Counted from the first letter of the stretch, positions 16,572 through 24,969 are shown. The stretch: DNA of 24,969 bases from an uncultured Candidatus Saccharibacteria bacterium (GCA_964627575.1 CAZVJX010000001.1:1-24969); one strand, 5' to 3'. The notes: generated by a model from the sequence alone, not told the origin. Translations and numbers: made by a program.

Positions 16572-18404
16572 ATGGCTCCTGTGCCCGGCAAGAAACATAC
16601 CCGGACCATCCTACGGGAATACTCCAAGGCGCTCCTGAAGCGCCCGTGGTATTTCCTGCTGCTCTTTGCGAGCGTCGTTGGCCTCGAAGGCTTCATGCTT
16701 GCCGAGCCGCTGTACTTCCGGCAGATCTTTAACGGCATTGCCTCGGGCACGCCCTCGACGGAGACCGCGACCCGCCTCTTCTGGATACTCGGCATCCTTG
16801 CGCTCCTGACGATCGGCGAGCAGTGCTGCCGCCGCCTCAATAGCGCGATGCTCATCGTCATCGAGAACCGGGCCATGGTGGACCTCACCGAGCGGGTCTT
16901 TACCTACGTCCTCGGCCACTCCCAGGGATTTTTCACCTCGCAATTCGTCGGGACCCTTACCCGCCGCGTCCGGCATTTCTATCAGGCCTTCGAGACGATC
17001 CTCGAGACCGTGATGACGCAGCTCTTCACGACGCTCCTCTTCGTCATTGGTGCGGTGACGATTCTCTTCCTGCGCAGCCACATCCTCGGCATCGTCCTTG
17101 CCGTATGGGTCGTGCTCATGGTCGCGCTCCAGATATGGCTCACGCGCATCATGCAGCCGCTGCGCAAGGCGCGCAGCGAGGCGGACAGCAAGGTATCGGG
17201 CGCGCTCTCGGACACGATCAGCAACCACGACACGATCCTCTTGTTCTCGGGCATTCCGCTTGAGCGCTCCGCCTTCGCGAAGATCATCGAGGCTTGGCGC
17301 GCAGCCAGCCGCCGCGCCTGGACCGCCGACGAGATGGTCTGGGGCACCATGGGTTTCTTCATGGGCCTCATCGAGCTCTTGCTCATCGGACTCGCCATCT
17401 GGCTCTGGGAGAAAGGCATCCTCACGATCGGCGACTTCATCCTCATCCAGCTCTACCTCGTCACGACCTTCAATAACGTGGTGGGCATCAACTTCACCCT
17501 CCGCCGCTTCTACAGCGCGCTCGCCGACGCCTCGGAGACCGCGGAACTCCTCGATGCGCCGCACGATATCATAGACCTGCCGGATGCCCGTCCGCTTGCC
17601 GTGAGCGCAGGAAGCATTACGTTTGCGCACGTAGATTTCAGCTTCAACGAGGCCCGTACCATCCTTAAGGACTACCGCCTCGCGCTACGCGGCGGAGAGA
17701 AGGTGGCCCTCGTCGGCCCTTCGGGCGCCGGGAAGTCCACCGTCACGAAACTTCTCCTGCGCCTCTACGACGTAACGGCCGGCTCGATCTGCATAGACGG
17801 CCAGGATATCGCGCAAGTCGCGCAGGAGAGCCTCCGTAACGCGATCGGATTCGTGCCCCAGGAGCCCATTCTCTTCCACCGCAGCCTGAGGGAGAACATC
17901 CGCTACGGCCGTCCGGGTGCATCCGACGAGGAGGTCATGGCGGCCGCGAAGAAGGCGCATGCCCACGAATTCATTTCCGGCTTCCCGCAGGGCTACGACA
18001 CGCTCGTGGGCGAGCGCGGCGTGAAGCTGTCGGGCGGCGAGCGCCAGCGCGTCGCCATCGCCCGGGCCATCCTCAAGAACGCGCCCATCCTGGTGCTCGA
18101 CGAAGCGACATCATCGCTCGATTCCGAGAGCGAGCACTACATCCAGGCAGCCCTCGATACGCTCATGGAAGGGAAGACGGTCGTCGTCATCGCGCACCGC
18201 CTCTCGACCATCATGAAAATGGACCGCATCGTCGTCATGGAGCAGGGCCGCATCGTCGCGAGCGGCACCCACGACGTGCTCCTTGCGGAAGGCGGCCTCT
18301 ACCAGAAGCTCTGGAGCATCCAGGCGGGCGGCTTCCTCATCGAGGAGGGCGACGACGAGCCGGAGGAGGCAGAAGAACCCGAGGAAGACGAGGAAGAGGC
18401 CTAG
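16572..18404 (+). CDS. ABC exporter, fused TMD-NBD (ABCB/MsbA-Atm1-like)
   Basis: N-terminal TM bundle. Walker A GPSGAGKST, signature LSGGERQR, Walker B ILVLDEATSSLD, H-loop IAHRLS. Acidic C-terminal tail. Confidence 0.95.
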   Translation: MAPVPGKKHTRTILREYSKALLKRPWYFLLLFASVVGLEGFMLAEPLYFRQIFNGIASGTPSTETATRLFWILGILALLTIGEQCCRRLNSAMLIVIENRAMVDLTERVFTYVLGHSQGFFTSQFVGTLTRRVRHFYQAFETILETVMTQLFTTLLFVIGAVTILFLRSHILGIVLAVWVVLMVALQIWLTRIMQPLRKARSEADSKVSGALSDTISNHDTILLFSGIPLERSAFAKIIEAWRAASRRAWTADEMVWGTMGFFMGLIELLLIGLAIWLWEKGILTIGDFILIQLYLVTTFNNVVGINFTLRRFYSALADASETAELLDAPHDIIDLPDARPLAVSAGSITFAHVDFSFNEARTILKDYRLALRGGEKVALVGPSGAGKSTVTKLLLRLYDVTAGSICIDGQDIAQVAQESLRNAIGFVPQEPILFHRSLRENIRYGRPGASDEEVMAAAKKAHAHEFISGFPQGYDTLVGERGVKLSGGERQRVAIARAILKNAPILVLDEATSSLDSESEHYIQAALDTLMEGKTVVVIAHRLSTIMKMDRIVVMEQGRIVASGTHDVLLAEGGLYQKLWSIQAGGFLIEEGDDEPEEAEEPEEDEEEA

Positions 18405-18453
18405 TGTGGGTAGCTGGGAGGCGGTCTAGGGCCGCGGGCTATACTGGGAGAAC

Positions 18454-18972
18454 ATGGAGGATATCGCCGTCCAGGTAGGGAACTTCACGACCGCGGCCGC
18501 GTCGAATTCCGTCGCCCTCATCAGCAATTTCATTATCCTGCTCGCGCTCACGGTGGGATTCATCCTCTTCTCCTACCGCTCGAAGGGCGGCATCGTCTCG
18601 ATGATCATGAGCTTCTATGTGGCATACGCGCTTTACCTCGTGTTCCCGTACACCAAGCAGATCATAGACACGGCCGGTTCACCGCTCATGAAGTCGGTCA
18701 TCAGCGTAGCGATCTACGCCATCGCCTGCGTCGTGCCGTACCTGTTCGTCGAGCGCCTCGTCTCGGGCGGCATCGGCATCCTCTCGGTCTTCCCGCGCTT
18801 CGGGCTCTCGTTCCTTGCAGCGACCTTCCTCATGGCGCTCGCGTACCATGTCTTCCCGGTGAGCCACATCTATACCTTCCCCGAGCCGATGAATACGCTC
18901 TTCGCTCCTGACCAGTACTTCTTCTGGTGGTTCTTGGCGCCGCTCCTCGGCCTCATTCTCCTCGTCCATTAG
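18454..18972 (+). CDS. Hypothetical integral membrane protein (4-5 TM)
   Basis: Hydrophobic throughout. TATACT lies 8 nt upstream (18440-18445). Confidence 0.85.
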   Translation: MEDIAVQVGNFTTAAASNSVALISNFIILLALTVGFILFSYRSKGGIVSMIMSFYVAYALYLVFPYTKQIIDTAGSPLMKSVISVAIYAIACVVPYLFVERLVSGGIGILSVFPRFGLSFLAATFLMALAYHVFPVSHIYTFPEPMNTLFAPDQYFFWWFLAPLLGLILLVH

Positions 18973-18974
18973 CT

Positions 18975-19148
18975 ATGTCCGTCCTCATGAAAGTAGGGCT
19001 CGCCATCTTCGTCGCGGGGCTCCTGTCGTATTTCTTCCACCACTCCGCCATCCTTTCGGCCTTCATTTCCGCCATCGGATTCGTCCTTTTCGTCCTTGGG
19101 GTCATTGGCTGGAGCCTCGAGGAGCCCGGCGACATCTCCTTCTCCTAA
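18975..19148 (+). CDS. Small membrane protein (57 aa, 2 TM)
   Basis: ATG 18975, 2 nt after the previous stop. MSVLMKVGLAIFVAGLLSYFF...AIGFVLFVLGVIGW. Confidence 0.6.
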   Translation: MSVLMKVGLAIFVAGLLSYFFHHSAILSAFISAIGFVLFVLGVIGWSLEEPGDISFS

Positions 19149-19207
19149 CCCTTACGTAATCCCAAGGTTGTCCCGATCTGGCTCTTGAGCCGGGCTATAC
19201 TGAAGGT

Positions 19208-20101
19208 ATGAATACGGAGCTTTTTATAGCCGTCCTCGCGGGCTTAGGCGGCATGTTCGGGTGGGGCCTTGCCGACTTCTTCGCAAAGAAGACGATAGAT
19301 GCGATAGGCGATATCACCAGTCTCGTGTGGGCCCATGTGTGCGGGACCATTATTCTCGCGATCCTTGCGCTCTATGAGCTGGCCCATGGCGTGACGCCGA
19401 TAACCAATATTACGGGAAATGCGTGGCTCGGTCTCATCTTCTTCGGTGTACTCCAAGCTATCGTATACCTCCTGGTATATCGGGGGTTCGGAAAAGGGCA
19501 GGTCTCGCTCCTTAATCCGGTCTTCGCTTCCTTTTCGGGAATCGTCGCATTGCTCTCGGTCGCGTTCTTCGGCGAGATACTTACCGGAAACCTCCTCATT
19601 TCCCTCGTAATCGTCTTTGCGGGAATCATGATGCTTAATCTCGATCCGGCAGCCCTCAAGGAGCGGCGCATTGCCCTGGTTTCCATTCCTGGCTTCAAGG
19701 AGGTTGGGCTCGCGACACTCTTCGCGGCGGGCTGGACCATTCTATGGAAGCAATTCGTGACCGGCCAGGACTGGCTTTGGTTCGCGCTCTATATGTACGT
19801 CTTCATGACCGTGGCGATGCTCCTATACGCCTGGGTGAGGCGCATCAGTCTGCGTATCTCCCTGTCCTCCGTATGGATTTACTTGTTCCTCATCGGCCTC
19901 TTTGAAACTGGCGCGTATATCGCTATCAGTTACGGCTACAGCCGTACGCCACTCACCAGCGTTGTCGCCCTTCTCTCCGGCGCATTCTCGCTCCCGACCA
20001 TCGTCCTCGCGCGCATCTTCCTGAAAGAGCGGGTGACTCGCTTCCAAACGATCGGCAGTCTCATCATCGTGCTTGGTATTGTCCTGGTGTCCTTGCTATA
20101 G
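19208..20101 (+). CDS. EamA/DMT family transporter
   Basis: About 10 TM in two repeats. WGLADFFAK, GQVSLLNPV, TSVVALLS...VLARIFLKERV..FQTIG.LIIVLGIVLV. Confidence 0.9.
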   Translation: MNTELFIAVLAGLGGMFGWGLADFFAKKTIDAIGDITSLVWAHVCGTIILAILALYELAHGVTPITNITGNAWLGLIFFGVLQAIVYLLVYRGFGKGQVSLLNPVFASFSGIVALLSVAFFGEILTGNLLISLVIVFAGIMMLNLDPAALKERRIALVSIPGFKEVGLATLFAAGWTILWKQFVTGQDWLWFALYMYVFMTVAMLLYAWVRRISLRISLSSVWIYLFLIGLFETGAYIAISYGYSRTPLTSVVALLSGAFSLPTIVLARIFLKERVTRFQTIGSLIIVLGIVLVSLL

Positions 20102-20110
20102 TCCCGAAAT

Positions 20111-21250
20111 ATGCCCGACACGACCAGTTCCGATTTCAGCCCGGAAGCACTTACCGCACTAGAGTACCAGACGCCGTTCTTCCTCTTCTCGAAAAAACGC
20201 ATTCTGAGGAAGCTCGATGAGTTCCGCACGAACTTCCCCCATGCGGACATCCATTACGCCGTTAAGGCGAACTCGGAGATTCCCATCCTCGAACTGCTCG
20301 ATGATGCTGGCTCCTGCTTCGAGGCCGCATCCAAATACGAACTTGATTACCTGAAGCAGGCAGGGGTGAAAGGGGACAAGATCATCTACGGAACTTCCGT
20401 AAAACCGGCTGACCATATCGCCGCATTCCATGAGTACGGCGTGGATCGCTTCTCCGCCGACTCGTTCCCGGAACTGGAAAAAATAGCCGCCCACGCGCCG
20501 GGCGCGCGCGTGTATGTCCGCATGAGCGTGAACGATACCGGCAGCGTCTTCCGCTTCTCGGAGAAATTCGGCACCGCAAAGAAGAACGTCGTCCCCCTCC
20601 TGCGTCACGCCATAGAAATAGGTCTCCAGCCATACGGTATCAGCTTCCATGTCGGTTCCCAGGCGAGCAATCCGCTCGCCTGGGCCCATGCCCTCCGCGA
20701 CGTGAGGGAAGTGATGGAAGAGCTCGATACCTACGGCATCCGCATCGAAGTCGTGAATCTGGGCGGGGGCTTTCCTTGCCATTACCTCACCACGGAAGAA
20801 ACCTCTGATCTCGATGAAATAGCGAAATTCACCCTTGAAGAGGCCGAGAAGCTCCCCTACAAGACGAAGTTCCTTCTCGAGCCTGGCCGCGGCCTCATCG
20901 CCGACTCGGGCGTGCTCGTTACGAGCGTGATTGCGCGCATCGGGCGCGGGGAGAATACCTGGCTCTTCCTCGATGCCGGTGTCTATAACGCGCTGTTCGA
21001 AGCGATGGCGTACCAGGGCTCCACGCGCTACCCGGTCACCAGCACGCGCCCCTCCTACGATGCAGGGGAGATGCTCTACGCCCTCGCCGGTCCCACGGGC
21101 GATTCCCCGGACATCATTACTCGCGAGGCTCTTCTGCCGCGCGATATGGAAATAGGGGACAGGCTCGTGATTCATAAGGTGGGCGCCTACACCCTTACCG
21201 CGACCTGCCCCTTCAACGGTTTCCCCAAGCCTCCGGTTTACTATGTCTAG
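20111..21250 (+). CDS. Fold-type III PLP-dependent decarboxylase (ornithine/lysine/arginine decarboxylase family), catalytic Cys replaced by Gly
   Basis: YAVKAN (PLP Lys), SFHVGSQ, NLGGGF, EPGR, LDAGVY, GPTGDSPD, GAYT, FNGF. Confidence 0.88.
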   Translation: MPDTTSSDFSPEALTALEYQTPFFLFSKKRILRKLDEFRTNFPHADIHYAVKANSEIPILELLDDAGSCFEAASKYELDYLKQAGVKGDKIIYGTSVKPADHIAAFHEYGVDRFSADSFPELEKIAAHAPGARVYVRMSVNDTGSVFRFSEKFGTAKKNVVPLLRHAIEIGLQPYGISFHVGSQASNPLAWAHALRDVREVMEELDTYGIRIEVVNLGGGFPCHYLTTEETSDLDEIAKFTLEEAEKLPYKTKFLLEPGRGLIADSGVLVTSVIARIGRGENTWLFLDAGVYNALFEAMAYQGSTRYPVTSTRPSYDAGEMLYALAGPTGDSPDIITREALLPRDMEIGDRLVIHKVGAYTLTATCPFNGFPKPPVYYV

Positions 21251-21268
21251 CCGATATATACTTATCGT

Positions 21269-22090
21269 ATGAACTTGAATGGTTTTCAGAAGGCCGCAGT
21301 GACATTCATGGCCCTTCTTGTCCTCTACTGGGCCTACATATTCTTCGCGCACCTTACCGAGGGGTTCCATAATTACTTCTTTTCCTTCCTCTTCGGTTTA
21401 ACGCCGCTCATCGCGGGCATTATCGCTATATTTCAGTCCCGTATCTGGGGAGGAGTGAAAAGCGCCGTGGGACGCGCCGTCTTCTTCATCGGTCTCGGCA
21501 TTTTCTGCTGGGGTGTCGGCGAAGCCATCTGGTCGTATTACAACTTCGTGCTCGCGGTCCCTGCGCCGTATCCGTCGCTCGCAGATATCGGATTTGCACC
21601 GAGCATTTTCTTCTATGGCCTGGGGACGGTCTTCCTTTCGCGCGCCACGGGAGCCCGCTATGGACTCCGTAACTCAATCGCCAAGATCTTCGTCATCTTC
21701 GCGCCGTTCCTCATCCTCGCCGCATCATATTACCTGCTGATCGTTGTTGCGCGCGGCGGAGTACTTATCCCCGACGGCGACACGGAGCTGAAGTACATCC
21801 TGGATATCGTCTATCCCCTTGGCGACTTCGTAGGTCTCACGATCGCCGTCATCGTGTCCGGCCTGTCCTTCAAGTACCTGGGCGGCAAGTACCTTCCGGA
21901 CATCATTGCACTCATGCTCGGCCTTCTGGTCATGTATATCGGCGATACGGTCTTCTCGTACACCACAACGGTGGGAACCTACTACAACGCTGATTTCGGC
22001 GATCTCATCCTCGCGACCGGCACATTCCTCCTTTCTTATGGCGCGCTGGGCTTCTCGACCCTCAAGAGCAAGCTCGTACAAGCCGTATGA
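21269..22090 (+). CDS. Stand-alone multi-pass (about 7 TM) putative membrane sensor
   Basis: Motifs WGVGEAIW, PYPSLADIGF, YPLGDF, YIGD and FGD resemble membrane input modules normally fused to GGDEF or kinase domains. No cytoplasmic output domain. TATACT lies 6 nt upstream. Confidence 0.7.
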   Translation: MNLNGFQKAAVTFMALLVLYWAYIFFAHLTEGFHNYFFSFLFGLTPLIAGIIAIFQSRIWGGVKSAVGRAVFFIGLGIFCWGVGEAIWSYYNFVLAVPAPYPSLADIGFAPSIFFYGLGTVFLSRATGARYGLRNSIAKIFVIFAPFLILAASYYLLIVVARGGVLIPDGDTELKYILDIVYPLGDFVGLTIAVIVSGLSFKYLGGKYLPDIIALMLGLLVMYIGDTVFSYTTTVGTYYNADFGDLILATGTFLLSYGALGFSTLKSKLVQAV

Positions 22091-22374
22091 CCAAGATCGA
22101 GGAAATGGCAGTCCGTATCATCAAAGAGCAGGAGCTCATCATCGGTCCTATCGCCTGGTCCGAAGCTCGGCATGTTCCGGGGCTGCAAATTCCGGAAGGG
22201 CAGTCTTCCGCGGTTACCATCGAAGGTGATGGCAGGGCAGTGATAGACAGCCTCGTGGGGCAGTACGAGCGCCTCTTCGGCCGCGCTTCCCGGGAAGCGT
22301 GCCGGGATGCGGTCGCCAGCATCATCGCGGACCTCTCCCCGTCCGAAATACCCTCTAGCCTCGCTGCTGCATAG
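22087..22374 (+). CDS. Small soluble hypothetical protein (95 aa), putative adaptor
   Basis: ATGA overlap with the upstream gene. IIKEQELIIGPIAWSEAR...LVGQYERLFGRASREACRDAV. Host-like codon usage. Confidence 0.85.
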   Translation: MTKIEEMAVRIIKEQELIIGPIAWSEARHVPGLQIPEGQSSAVTIEGDGRAVIDSLVGQYERLFGRASREACRDAVASIIADLSPSEIPSSLAAA

Positions 22375-22377
22375 CCT

Positions 22378-23697
22378 ATGGCTGCTGCGGTGGATTTCGA
22401 GCAGCAGCTGCGGGAAGCGAACACCCAGCTCTACGAACATAGCCGCGACCTGGCGGTACGCAATAAGATACTTTCGCTTCTCCGAAAGCTGTACCAGACG
22501 AGCATCCAGTCGCTGGATCCGCGTGCACTGGGCGAGCAGATCGTAGGAATCGTCCTTTCCGAGCTGGAGCTCGAACTTGCGGGCATCTTACTCTATGACG
22601 CGGGCACCAATTCGCTTCGTTCCCTTACCTATACGGGGTCCAAGCGCCTGCTCGAAGCATGTGAAGATGCGGAATGCGGGTTCTTCACGCACGACATTCC
22701 AAACGTCTCCTCGGTTCCGTTCCTGAAGTCGGCGTTCCAGGGCTCGGTCGCAGTCACCGAGAACCTCGGCGACCTTTGGGATGGCACCATTCCCGACTCC
22801 TCGCTCGAGCGCATCGCCGCCGCAGGCCATATCCGAGAGCTTCTGGTCGAGCCGCTTCGGGTAGGGGAGAAGGTGCAGGGAGTGCTTATCCTGGGCTTCA
22901 ATCGGTCCACCGACGAACTGAGCCAGTTTGAACGCGAATCCATCTACAACCTCGTGGATGTCGTCGCCATCGCGCTCGACCGCGCGCAGCTGTACGAAGA
23001 ACTCAAGATGGCCAATGAGCGCCAGGTCACGCTCATCCACTTCATCACGCACCAGATCAAGGGCTTCGTGACGAAATCGCGCTACATCTTTTCCATGGCA
23101 CTCGATGGCGATTTCGGCCCCGTGACCGACCAGCTCCGCCCCATGCTTGAGGAGGGCCTCCGTTCCGATACGCAGGGAGTGAACACCATCCAGGACATCC
23201 TGAACGCCGCGAACATCAAGAGCGGCAAGGTCGCCTACAAGATGGAGCCGTTCGACCTCAAGAATCTCATCGACCAGGTGGTCAATGTCCTGGCGCCGAA
23301 CGCGCAGCAGAAAGGACTCGAGCTCAAGCTCGAGACTGGCACCGAACCCTTCACCATCACCGGCGACCGCGAGCAACTGCGCAACGCATTCAAGAACCTC
23401 GTGGATAATTCCATCAAGTACACGCCGACCGGCTCGGTGCGTGTCGCGCTCGCGAAGGAGGCCGGCAAGGCAGTGCTGCGCATTGAGGACACGGGCGTCG
23501 GCATCACCCCTGAAGACATGAAGAACCTCTTCACCGAGGGCGGCCACGGCAAGGAGTCCACAAAGGTGAACGTCGAGTCCACCGGCTTCGGCCTCTACAT
23601 CGTGAAGAACATCATCGAGGCCCATAAGGGCGCCGTCCGCGCCGAATCGGACGGCGCCGGGAAGGGAAGCCGTTTCATCGTCGAGCTCCCGATGTAG
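22378..23697 (+). CDS. Soluble GAF-domain sensor histidine kinase
   Basis: N-terminal coiled coil, GAF-like region, H-box FITHQIKG, N-box KNLVDNSIKYT, G1 EDTGVGI, G2 STGFGLYIV. No TM segment. Starts 3 nt after the upstream stop. Confidence 0.93.
   Translation: MAAAVDFEQQLREANTQLYEHSRDLAVRNKILSLLRKLYQTSIQSLDPRALGEQIVGIVLSELELELAGILLYDAGTNSLRSLTYTGSKRLLEACEDAECGFFTHDIPNVSSVPFLKSAFQGSVAVTENLGDLWDGTIPDSSLERIAAAGHIRELLVEPLRVGEKVQGVLILGFNRSTDELSQFERESIYNLVDVVAIALDRAQLYEELKMANERQVTLIHFITHQIKGFVTKSRYIFSMALDGDFGPVTDQLRPMLEEGLRSDTQGVNTIQDILNAANIKSGKVAYKMEPFDLKNLIDQVVNVLAPNAQQKGLELKLETGTEPFTITGDREQLRNAFKNLVDNSIKYTPTGSVRVALAKEAGKAVLRIEDTGVGITPEDMKNLFTEGGHGKESTKVNVESTGFGLYIVKNIIEAHKGAVRAESDGAGKGSRFIVELPM
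23531..23689 (+). repeat. Direct repeat copy 1 (kinase 3' end)
   Basis: Aligns without gaps to 24811-24969 (offset 1280) with 9 mismatches in 159 nt. Confidence 0.97.
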
Positions 23698-23701
23698 TTC
23701 G

Positions 23702-24199
23702 ATGAAAATTCTTGGAGAACTGAATTTCGAAGACGCTGGAGACACCTCTTCTTTTCAAGTTCGACGCACCGCACGGTCCGTTGTGCATAATGCCGATAAT
23801 ATGGTGGCGCTTCTCGCCGTGACCAAGGGCGGCTACCACAAACTGCCTGGCGGCGGCATAGACGAAGGGGAGACGGCGGAGATAGCTCTCCGTCGCGAGT
23901 GTAAAGAGGAACTTGGCTGTGATGTCAAAATCGATAAATATCTGGGCTGCGTTATCGAGATCCGGCCGTCGCAGCAGGTACGGCAGGAATCTGAAGCATT
24001 TTTGGCGCATCTCATTAGCGACATTGGCGGCTCAGCTTTTACTGAAGAGGAACGAAATGCCGGGTATGAAATTCGATGGTTACCGTTGATGGACGCAATC
24101 AATCAGCTTTCTCAAGAGATCCCCACTGAACCTGGTCGTAGATATGTTCCTGAGCGCGACCTCCTTATCCTTAAGGCAGCTCGCGATTGCCTGGCATGA
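23702..24199 (+). CDS. Nudix hydrolase
   Basis: Nudix box GGGIDEGETAEIALRRECKEELG. Confidence 0.92.
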   Translation: MKILGELNFEDAGDTSSFQVRRTARSVVHNADNMVALLAVTKGGYHKLPGGGIDEGETAEIALRRECKEELGCDVKIDKYLGCVIEIRPSQQVRQESEAFLAHLISDIGGSAFTEEERNAGYEIRWLPLMDAINQLSQEIPTEPGRRYVPERDLLILKAARDCLA

Positions 24200-24339
24200 A
24201 AGAAGGATTCAGGATTCCTGTCGTTAAACATTTAGAGGATAAAGATGATCTCTTTGAGGGGAGGGACGCAGCGTTACTGTCCGGCCAGGAAGCAGAAGCA
24301 CATGAGACAACTCTCTCATTTCACTTCTCCCTCCATTGA
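24196..24339 (+). pseudogene. 47-codon ORF coupled to the Nudix gene, possible truncated remnant
   Basis: ATGA overlap. MKEGFRIPVVKHLEDKDDLFEGRDAALLSGQEAEAHETTLSFHFSLH weakly resembles a histidine-phosphatase N-terminus. Confidence 0.25.
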
Positions 24340-24445
24340 GTCCAGAAACCTGACCATCAAGCTTCCGTCGCTAATTCTATACTTTTTAATAGACTGTCAA
24401 GGTGACTAAATCTTGCAATTTGGGGATGAATTGTATAATTAATTT

Positions 24446-24757
24446 ATGTATTTCTCGCGAATTTTTAAAGTGAAGGATGGAAAACTACTCCGTCTAAAAG
24501 AGTGGATGGAACAGTTGAGTACAGTTCGCCGGTCTGAAGCCATCAATACGTTTGAGTATGAGAACGTAACACGTGAGATTTTTGTGTATTTTAAGGGCCA
24601 TGACGGAAACAATTATGTCATCGGCCTTAATGAAGCGAATGAGCCGTATCGTTCAGCTGAGCCCACAGTACCCATTAATCAGGAGCACAACTCGATAAAG
24701 AAAGAATGTTTGGAACCAATATCCGAAAAAGGCGAGGTCTGGCTTGATTTGCCCTAA
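24446..24757 (+). CDS. DUF6176-like hypothetical protein (dimeric alpha/beta barrel type)
   Basis: FKVKDGK...EWM...EAINTFEYENVTREIFVYF...YVIG...PINQEH pattern recalled for DUF6176. TATAAT lies 6 nt upstream (24434-24439). AT-rich. Confidence 0.55.
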   Translation: MYFSRIFKVKDGKLLRLKEWMEQLSTVRRSEAINTFEYENVTREIFVYFKGHDGNNYVIGLNEANEPYRSAEPTVPINQEHNSIKKECLEPISEKGEVWLDLP

Positions 24758-24803
24758 ACGCATTAAATACGGGACCATTTAACAGTGCGGTATAACGCCC
24801 TCC

Positions 24804-24969
24804 ATGACCCTCACCGAGGGCAGCCACGGCAAGGAGTCCACGAAGGTGAACGTCGAGTTCACCGGCTTCGGTCTCTATATCGTGAAGAACATCATCGAGG
24901 CCCATAAGAGCACGGTCCGCGCCGAATCGGACGGCGCCGGGAAGGGAAGCCGATTCATCGTCGAGCTCC
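24804..24969 (+). pseudogene. Direct repeat copy 2: degenerate duplicate of the kinase C-terminal (HATPase G2) segment, runs off window
   Basis: ATG 24804 reads MTLTEGSHGKESTKVNVEFTGFGLYIVKNIIEAHKSTVRAESDGAGKGSRFIVEL. Repeat proper is 24811-24969. Confidence 0.85.

What the first reader, a model, noticed from the sequence alone, without database searches (positions are those of the whole stretch)
21257..23697. Split three-part signalling module: stand-alone membrane sensor, 95-aa protein and soluble GAF histidine kinase
Three genes are tightly coupled (ATGA overlap, then a 3-nt gap) behind one -10 element. The first looks like a membrane input domain (PYPSxAD, YPxGD) of the kind normally fused to an output domain, but it ends after the last helix. 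The kinase has no TM and starts with a coiled coil. The small helical protein between them has no motif I recognise and is not a receiver domain. No response regulator is in the window. I infer a receptor-adaptor-kinase system in which the small protein relays the membrane signal, an architecture outside standard two-component descriptions.
Basis: inference. Interest (0 to 1): 0.78.

Follow-up and report, generated by a model that had tools for sequence, protein, structure and literature searches.

The report
Split three-gene membrane sensor kinase
Three tightly packed genes in this small Patescibacteria (CPR) genome look like one membrane sensor histidine kinase cut into three proteins (an 8-helix receptor, a 95-aa cytoplasmic domain and a soluble kinase); relatives keep the set together and sometimes fuse its parts, and the receptor and the small domain match no named family.

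Summary
There are three co-oriented ORFs: an 8-TM protein (21269-22090), a 95-aa protein (22087-22374, ATGA overlap) and a TM-less GAF histidine kinase (22378-23697, 3-nt gap). No receiver domain lies in the window.

The trio is not chance. In 73 related Patescibacteria loci the membrane gene is followed by the small gene in 67, and by a kinase with the same N-terminal helix in 61. In 20 more divergent genomes the pair is kept in 20 of 20 and the kinase in 17 of 20.

All three pairwise fusions occur naturally. Receptor-small fusions make up 18 of the 150 best family clusters. One small-kinase fusion and several receptor-helix-PAS-kinase fusions were also found. Gene order therefore equals the domain order of a single sensor kinase.

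The receptor fold matches N-terminal membrane input modules of GGDEF, HAMP, cyclase and kinase proteins, but no Pfam, NCBIfam or PDB family by sequence. The small domain is also unnamed; a HalOD1 lead failed.

Relatives often carry an adjacent single-domain receiver, so the output is probably ordinary phosphotransfer. In this clade the trio sits behind an EamA transporter and an atypical PLP decarboxylase, which suggests, but does not show, an amine signal.

First-stage readers of this scan noted the same trio in at least seven other genomes. I class it as a new variant of a known kind.

The parts
19208..20101 (+). EamA/DMT-family transporter, first gene of the conserved five-gene cluster
   Evidence: Pfam EamA E 5e-29. 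Colinear with the cluster in most of the 73 related loci, but in 0 of 20 divergent loci.
20111..21250 (+). Fold-type III PLP decarboxylase (Orn/DAP/Arg family) with Gly in place of the catalytic Cys (GPTGD)
   Evidence: Pfam Orn_Arg_deC_N E 3e-51. Best NCBIfam model is lysA at 200 bits, below the 298 cut-off. Gly is conserved in 64 of 65 cluster orthologues.
21269..22090 (+). Stand-alone 8-TM receptor of an unnamed family; predicted N-in/C-in; family-wide hallmarks PYPSxxD (100-106), D179xxYP, D226, D245 on the outer half
   Evidence: AF2 pLDDT 80 with 8 helices. Fold matches to input modules of GGDEF, HAMP, HK and cyclase proteins at TM 0.6-0.8. 2012 clusters in the profile search. Conservation and loop charges.
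22087..22374 (+). 95-aa soluble alpha/beta domain protein of an unnamed family; the receptor's detachable cytoplasmic domain
   Evidence: AF2 pLDDT 94. 444 homologues of 91-111 aa, nearly all 92-98 aa. Fused C-terminally to the receptor in 18 of 150 clusters and N-terminally to the kinase in L101.
22378..23697 (+). Soluble histidine kinase: conserved N-terminal helix, weak GAF, DHp with H225, HATPase_c
   Evidence: Pfam. Alignment A3 with invariant H225 and N, G1 and G2 boxes.
22429..22482 (+). Kinase N-terminal signature helix (aa 18-35; Y19, N29, L32, L35 invariant), the proposed input or docking helix
   Evidence: Invariant across 28 aligned orthologues, whereas the GAF region is not. It is kept in the 11 GAF-less kinases. 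It follows the membrane domain directly in the fused kinases L098 and L099, and follows the small domain in L101.
23050..23052 (+). Codon of the phospho-acceptor His225 (H-box FITHQIKG)
   Evidence: Invariant column in A3.

Best explanation
The three genes encode one sensor histidine kinase made as three polypeptides. Part one is an 8-TM receptor of an unnamed family, predicted N-in/C-in. Its invariant PYPSxxD and DxxYP motifs and four invariant Asp residues lie in the outer half of the membrane. Part two is a roughly 90-aa cytoplasmic domain that continues the receptor's C-terminus. Part three is a soluble kinase whose invariant N-terminal helix is the input site, followed by a variable GAF domain, the DHp domain (His225) and the ATPase domain. 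Tight spacing and the ATGA overlap point to coupled translation. The proposed mechanism is that a signal bound at the outer face changes the receptor and small-domain unit. That unit acts on the kinase's N-terminal helix and sets autophosphorylation, and the phosphate goes to a single-domain receiver encoded elsewhere in this genome. Shown: co-conservation, the fusions, fold class and intact catalytic motifs. Inferred: physical contact, direction of relay and ligand. In this clade the module sits behind an EamA transporter and an atypical PLP decarboxylase, so the ligand may be an amine substrate or product. I rate that last step at only about 0.3.
For: Synteny: in 73 loci from many Patescibacteria lineages the order EamA-decarboxylase-receptor-small-kinase is colinear in about 60. 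The gap between receptor stop and small-gene start is about -38 to +67 nt (mostly 0-30) in the 66 unfused loci of 67 that carry both genes, and a kinase follows directly in 61. In 20 more divergent family members from a 301-genome sample the receptor-small pair is kept in 20 of 20 and the kinase in 17 of 20, but the decarboxylase in only 4 and EamA in 0, so the trio is the core. Fusions: receptor-small in 18 of 150 clusters plus L005 and P0093; small-kinase in L101 (P0407: small domain aa 1-93, then the signature helix, HisKA and HATPase_c); receptor-helix-PAS-HisKA-HATPase_c in L098, L099 and P0291. Receptor fold: TM 0.6-0.8 to N-terminal membrane modules of GGDEF/EAL, HAMP, kinase and cyclase proteins. 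The same sequence family is also fused to NB-ARC and TrmB-HTH domains. Kinase: Y19, N29, L32 and L35 in the N-terminal helix are invariant. The GAF region is poorly conserved and is missing in 11 of 61 orthologues, where the helix runs straight into DHp. H225 and the N, G1 and G2 boxes are invariant. In the own genome only this kinase has that N-terminal region. Single-domain receivers lie adjacent in 29 of the 73 related loci and in about 10 of 20 divergent loci.
Against: No direct evidence of binding exists; the three-chain complex prediction scored 0.00, which is no verdict. Most family members are stand-alone receptors or receptor-small fusions. At least one fused form (P0260, L093) has no kinase or decarboxylase nearby, so the receptor-small unit can work with other partners or alone. 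No ligand is known. No receiver gene is adjacent in this genome. The distribution is patchy: the family occurs in 28 of 301 sampled phylum genomes and strict orthologues in 6.
Confidence: 0.7

Rival explanations
1. The kinase senses through its own GAF domain. The receptor and small protein are not ligand sensors but a membrane anchor, scaffold or negative regulator of the kinase, in the way LiaF acts on LiaS.
For: A GAF-like region is present in most orthologues. Accessory membrane proteins that only restrain a kinase are known (LiaFSR, PMC3543457). No ligand for the receptor has been identified.
Against: The GAF region is the least conserved part of the kinase and is absent in 11 of 61 orthologues, while the N-terminal helix is invariant. 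The receptor's most conserved motifs face outward, which would not be expected of a mere anchor. The receptor fold is that of input modules.
Confidence: 0.15
2. The receptor-small pair is a membrane enzyme or transport accessory that handles the decarboxylase product. The kinase is merely a co-located regulator with no direct coupling.
For: Sequence conservation is very high (65-80% identity across lineages). Four Asp residues and a PYPS motif are invariant, which could be catalytic or ion-binding. Most family members lack a fused output domain. The genes are operonic with EamA and the decarboxylase here.
Against: The trio persists without the decarboxylase or EamA in 16 of 20 divergent loci. 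Fusions of the small domain to the kinase, and of the membrane domain to a PAS kinase, NB-ARC and TrmB-HTH, are typical of signalling modules. There is no match to any enzyme or transporter family.
Confidence: 0.12
3. The split is an artefact: the three ORFs are fragments of one gene broken by sequencing or assembly frameshifts.
For: Fused versions exist in other genomes.
Against: The split state, with its own start and stop codons, recurs in 66 of 67 independent assemblies that carry both genes. It also recurs in hundreds of stand-alone proteins of about 268 aa and about 94 aa from independent metagenomes.
Confidence: 0.01

Closest known systems
Sensor histidine kinases with N-terminal multi-pass input modules (e.g. 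HisKA_7TM, PF16927)
   Same: A polytopic membrane module with a similar predicted fold (TM 0.6-0.7 to proteins annotated as 'Histidine kinase N-terminal 7TM region') feeds a DHp-CA core. A fused receptor-PAS-kinase version of this very family exists.
   Different: There is no sequence relationship: the PF16927 HMM does not hit and hhalign gives probability 0.15%. The module has 8 helices rather than 7. Here the module, an extra roughly 90-aa domain and the kinase are separate polypeptides.
Two-component systems with accessory or co-sensor proteins ('three-component' systems: LiaFSR, QseG-QseE, DctA-DcuS, UhpABC)
   Same: A separate protein encoded beside the kinase is expected to control its activity (PMC3543457, PMC12691602, PMC5703999; UhpABC from general knowledge).
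   Different: In those systems the kinase is itself membrane-bound with its own TM or sensor part. Here the kinase is fully soluble, and two extra proteins correspond to excised N-terminal domains of one chain, as natural fusions show.
Chemotaxis receptor-CheW-CheA (receptor-adaptor-kinase)
   Same: The logic is the same: a membrane receptor, a small coupling protein, a soluble histidine kinase and a single-domain receiver as output.
   Different: No MCP signal domain, CheW fold or CheA P1-P5 domains are present (Pfam). The kinase is a class I HisKA-type kinase with its own H-box.
H-NOX / HnoK-type stand-alone sensor plus soluble kinase pairs
   Same: A small stand-alone protein is encoded next to a TM-less kinase. 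The small-protein model has a weak structural resemblance to the N-terminal subdomain of H-NOX (TM about 0.5, Z 5.3).
   Different: The resemblance is below significance. The protein is half the size of H-NOX, and no proximal His or heme pocket was identified. It is paired with a membrane receptor.
Decarboxylase-transporter loci with a membrane sensor (CadC-CadBA) and synthase-receptor pairs (CqsA-CqsS)
   Same: A PLP enzyme, a transporter and a membrane sensor lie in one locus (comparison from general knowledge).
   Different: The protein families are different. The decarboxylase lacks the catalytic Cys. Nothing shows that its product is the ligand.

Membership tests
Class I two-component histidine kinase (HisKA + HATPase_c) | HATPase_c domain with N, G1 and G2 boxes | tested here: met
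   PF02518 at E 6.4e-25 and 88 bits against a 26.4 cut-off. N340, N344, D371, G373, G375, G403 and G405 are invariant in A3.
Class I two-component histidine kinase (HisKA + HATPase_c) | DHp domain with a phospho-acceptor His | tested here: met
   H225 in the H-box FITHQIKG is an invariant column. NCBIfam kinase models align over aa 201-439. PF00512 itself does not reach E 0.1 on this protein, but it hits orthologues in L001 and L101.
Class I two-component histidine kinase (HisKA + HATPase_c) | Cognate receiver-domain partner | tested here: inconclusive
   No receiver lies on this contig, though the genome has 7 elsewhere. A single-domain receiver is adjacent in 29 of the 73 related loci and in about 10 of 20 divergent loci. 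The cognate one in this genome was not identified.
GAF domain | Match to a GAF profile above its threshold | tested here: inconclusive
   PF13185 scores 26.7 bits against a 28.6 cut-off over aa 46-201. The region is poorly conserved and is absent in 11 of 61 orthologues.
HisKA_7TM (PF16927) | Sequence match to the family profile | tested here: not met
   No Pfam hit at E<=0.1. The HMM finds nothing in the genome at E<=10. hhalign of A1 against a true PF16927 kinase (L101) gives probability 0.15%. There is fold-level resemblance only.
HalOD1 (PF18545) | Sequence or profile match to HalOD1 | tested here: not met
   One AFDB hit named 'Halobacterial output domain' has TM 0.82. However, the PF18545 HMM does not hit the small protein, and hhalign of A2 against a halovirus HalOD1 alignment gives probability 0.1%.
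Chemotaxis MCP-CheW-CheA | MCP signalling domain, CheW fold and CheA P1-P5 domains | tested here: not met
   No such Pfam families appear in any of the three proteins.
Accessory-protein-controlled ('three-component') kinase systems | A separate protein physically controls kinase activity | not testable with these tools
   Genomic linkage and all three pairwise fusions support it. The complex prediction gave no verdict. Biochemistry is needed.

The most novel reading that the evidence does not exclude
The five-gene cassette is a self-contained 'make, export, sense' circuit. The Cys-less PLP decarboxylase makes an unusual amine, EamA exports it, and the 8-TM receptor, small domain and kinase detect it outside the cell. 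That would give ultra-small CPR bacteria a quorum-sensing-like or host-directed chemical signal built on a new receptor class, with a patchy distribution across CPR lineages.
Probability: 0.15. Interest if true: 0.85.

Novelty: new variant of a known kind. Interest (0 to 1): 0.6.

Why it matters
Signal transduction in CPR/Patescibacteria is almost uncharacterised, although these reduced, often host-attached cells must sense partners and surroundings. This module defines two unnamed domain families: an 8-TM receptor family with more than 2000 clusters at 50% identity, and a roughly 90-aa cytoplasmic domain. It also offers a natural experiment in gene fission, because the same signalling chain exists as one, two or three polypeptides. 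That makes inter-domain signalling in sensor kinases testable by mixing separate parts. The link to an atypical decarboxylase and an exporter points to candidate ligands that could be tested.

Tried and rejected
1. Complex prediction of receptor + small protein + kinase (aa 1-215) with my own alignments scored 0.00. This is no verdict and is not evidence either way.
2. Sequence search of PDB with both profiles found nothing meaningful.
3. Foldseek against PDB and VIA-align wide search gave only generic matches. The receptor gave 7TM/GPCR-like arrangements (Z<=10.9, below the level meaningful for helical bundles). The small protein gave Z<=5.4.
4. The HalOD1 lead from one AFDB hit was rejected by HMM and profile-profile tests.
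5. A HisKA_7TM relationship was rejected at sequence level.
6. The ESM Atlas feature searches returned only unnamed clusters; the named-only search had no usable hit.
8. Rfam found no RNA element in 18000-24969.
9. Assigning the cognate receiver in this genome by similarity to cluster-adjacent receivers of relatives was ambiguous; the best matches are 36-42% identical on contigs C95, C2 and C21.
10. Literature searches found no description of this module.

Full report
**Observation.** The window carries three co-oriented ORFs exactly as described. They are a 273-aa hydrophobic protein (21269-22090), a 95-aa protein (22087-22374) and a 439-aa kinase (22378-23697). The small gene's ATG overlaps the upstream TGA as ATGA, and the kinase gene starts 3 nt after the small gene's stop. 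Pfam and NCBIfam give nothing for the first two proteins. The third has HATPase_c (E 6e-25) and a sub-threshold GAF_2 (26.7 bits against a 28.6 cut-off). It has no TM segment. The genome is a 686-kb, 88%-complete Patescibacteria assembly in 106 contigs. It has 7 receiver-domain matches, none on this contig. Spacings of 9, 18, -4, 3 and 4 nt from EamA (19208) to the Nudix gene (23702) suggest one longer operon.

**The membrane and small proteins are complete genes.** The membrane protein has more than 860 homologues of about 268 aa at 63-81% identity, nearly all stand-alone. The small protein has 444 homologues of 91-111 aa, nearly all 92-98 aa. Neither is a gene fragment.

**Synteny.** I examined 73 related loci from genome assemblies labelled Kaiser-, Andersen-, Nomura-, Gottesman-, Levyi- and Peribacteria, Paceibacteria, Microgenomates and Saccharimonadia.
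- The order EamA - Orn/DAP/Arg-type decarboxylase - receptor - small - kinase is colinear in about 60.
- Of the 67 loci with both receptor and small gene, 66 have the small gene about -38 to +67 nt (mostly 0-30) from the receptor's stop, and one (L005) is an in-frame fusion.
- A kinase follows in 61.

**Distribution and the conserved core.** A sample of 301 genomes of the phylum shows a patchy family. It occurs in 28 of 301 genomes at E<=1e-20. Strict orthologues occur in 6, and none in the 16 sampled genomes of the same class. I fetched the context of 20 of the more divergent members.
- Receptor followed by small: 20 of 20 (one fused).
- A kinase sharing the same N-terminal helix next door: 17 of 20.
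- A single-domain receiver nearby: about 10 of 20.
- The decarboxylase: only 4 of 20. EamA: 0 of 20.

The conserved core is therefore the trio, often with a receiver. EamA and the decarboxylase are an addition in this sub-clade.

**Fusions.** A profile search of 1.84 billion cluster representatives finds 2012 clusters. Among the best 150, 18 are receptor-small fusions of about 370-387 aa. Other fusions of the membrane domain include the following:
- PAS-HisKA-HATPase_c (P0291)
- NB-ARC NTPases
- TrmB-type HTH domains
- receptor-small-MazG

In L101 the small domain (aa 1-93) is fused directly to the kinase's signature helix, HisKA and HATPase_c. In L098 and L099 the membrane domain is followed by that same helix, then PAS, HisKA and HATPase_c. 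All three pairwise fusions therefore exist, and the gene order equals the domain order of one polypeptide. This is the strongest evidence that the three window proteins are parts of one signalling chain.

**Folds.** The AF2 model of the receptor (pLDDT 80) has 8 TM helices. Loop charges place the N- and C-termini inside the cell. The C-terminus is the end that is fused to cytoplasmic domains in relatives.
- AFDB and ESM-Atlas fold searches match N-terminal membrane modules of GGDEF/EAL, HAMP, PAS-kinase, adenylate/guanylate cyclase and 'HisKA_7TM' proteins at TM 0.6-0.8.
- PDB gives only generic 7TM similarity.
- At sequence level it is not HisKA_7TM.
- Family-wide invariant residues are W21, Y91, PYPSxxD (100-106), D179xxYP, D226xxF and D245, mostly on the outer half of the bundle. 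An acidic, aromatic outward-facing site is a reasonable inference, but coordinates could not be inspected.

The small protein folds confidently (pLDDT 94) into a compact alpha/beta domain. It has no convincing solved relative. A lead to HalOD1, the haloarchaeal output domain described in PMC5847659, failed both HMM and profile-profile tests.

**Kinase.** An alignment of 28 orthologues shows invariant Y19, N29, L32 and L35 in an N-terminal helix. The catalytic H225 and the N, G1 and G2 boxes are also invariant, whereas the GAF region is poorly conserved. Eleven of 61 orthologous kinases lack GAF altogether, and there the helix runs straight into DHp. Only this kinase in the genome has that N-terminal region. 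The helix looks like the signalling helix that normally follows the last TM segment of a membrane kinase.

**Mechanism.** The best reading is a split sensor kinase. The receptor and its detached cytoplasmic domain act on the kinase's N-terminal helix, and the output goes to a single-domain receiver. Contact and relay are inferred; the one complex prediction gave no verdict. A fused receptor-small protein without any kinase nearby (L093) shows that the receptor unit can also serve other partners.

**Candidate signal.** Here the trio follows an EamA transporter and a decarboxylase. In that decarboxylase the catalytic Cys of the GPTCD motif is Gly in 64 of 65 cluster orthologues. Its best NCBIfam match (lysA) is below the cut-off. 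An amine substrate or product as ligand is attractive but untested.

**Comparison and novelty.** Kinases controlled by separate proteins are known (LiaFSR PMC3543457, QseG-QseE PMC12691602, DctA-DcuS PMC5703999). The receptor-adaptor-kinase logic recalls chemotaxis. New here are two unnamed domain families, a fully soluble kinase whose entire membrane input is encoded separately, and a one-, two- and three-gene series of the same chain. No paper describing it was found. First-stage readers of this scan noted the same trio in at least seven other genomes. Those notes are unchecked and are not independent evidence.

Noticed in passing
window 20111-21250 (motif at aa 327-334): The PLP decarboxylase upstream has GPTGD instead of GPTCD. 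The Gly is conserved in 64 of 65 orthologues in related clusters, so this is a distinct subfamily and not a sequencing error. Its best NCBIfam model (lysA) is below the cut-off.
   Followed up: partly
window 23531-23689 and 24811-24969: The last ~159 nt of the kinase gene are repeated, with a few substitutions, at the very end of the contig, just after a DUF6176 gene. The contig breaks inside the repeat. It could be a remnant of a second kinase or an assembly boundary.
   Followed up: partly
window 23702-24199 and 24446-24757: A Nudix gene starts 4 nt after the kinase stop, and a DUF6176 gene follows. DUF6176 also sits between the small gene and the GAF kinase in relatives L002 and L003, so it may be a recurrent companion.
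   Followed up: no
L002/L003 1434-2806: In one relative a bAvd-like gene and a reverse transcriptase (the typical pair of a diversity-generating retroelement) lie directly upstream of EamA.
   Followed up: no
L098 3590-10514 and L099: This is a variant cluster: an extra receptor-like 321-aa protein replaces EamA. It is followed by the decarboxylase, receptor, small protein, a receptor-helix-PAS-kinase fusion and two single-domain receivers.
   Followed up: partly
P0257, P0311, P0304, P0248, P0269: The same 8-TM domain occurs at the C-terminus of NB-ARC (STAND) NTPases and of TrmB-type HTH proteins, which are unusual partners for a membrane sensor module.
   Followed up: no
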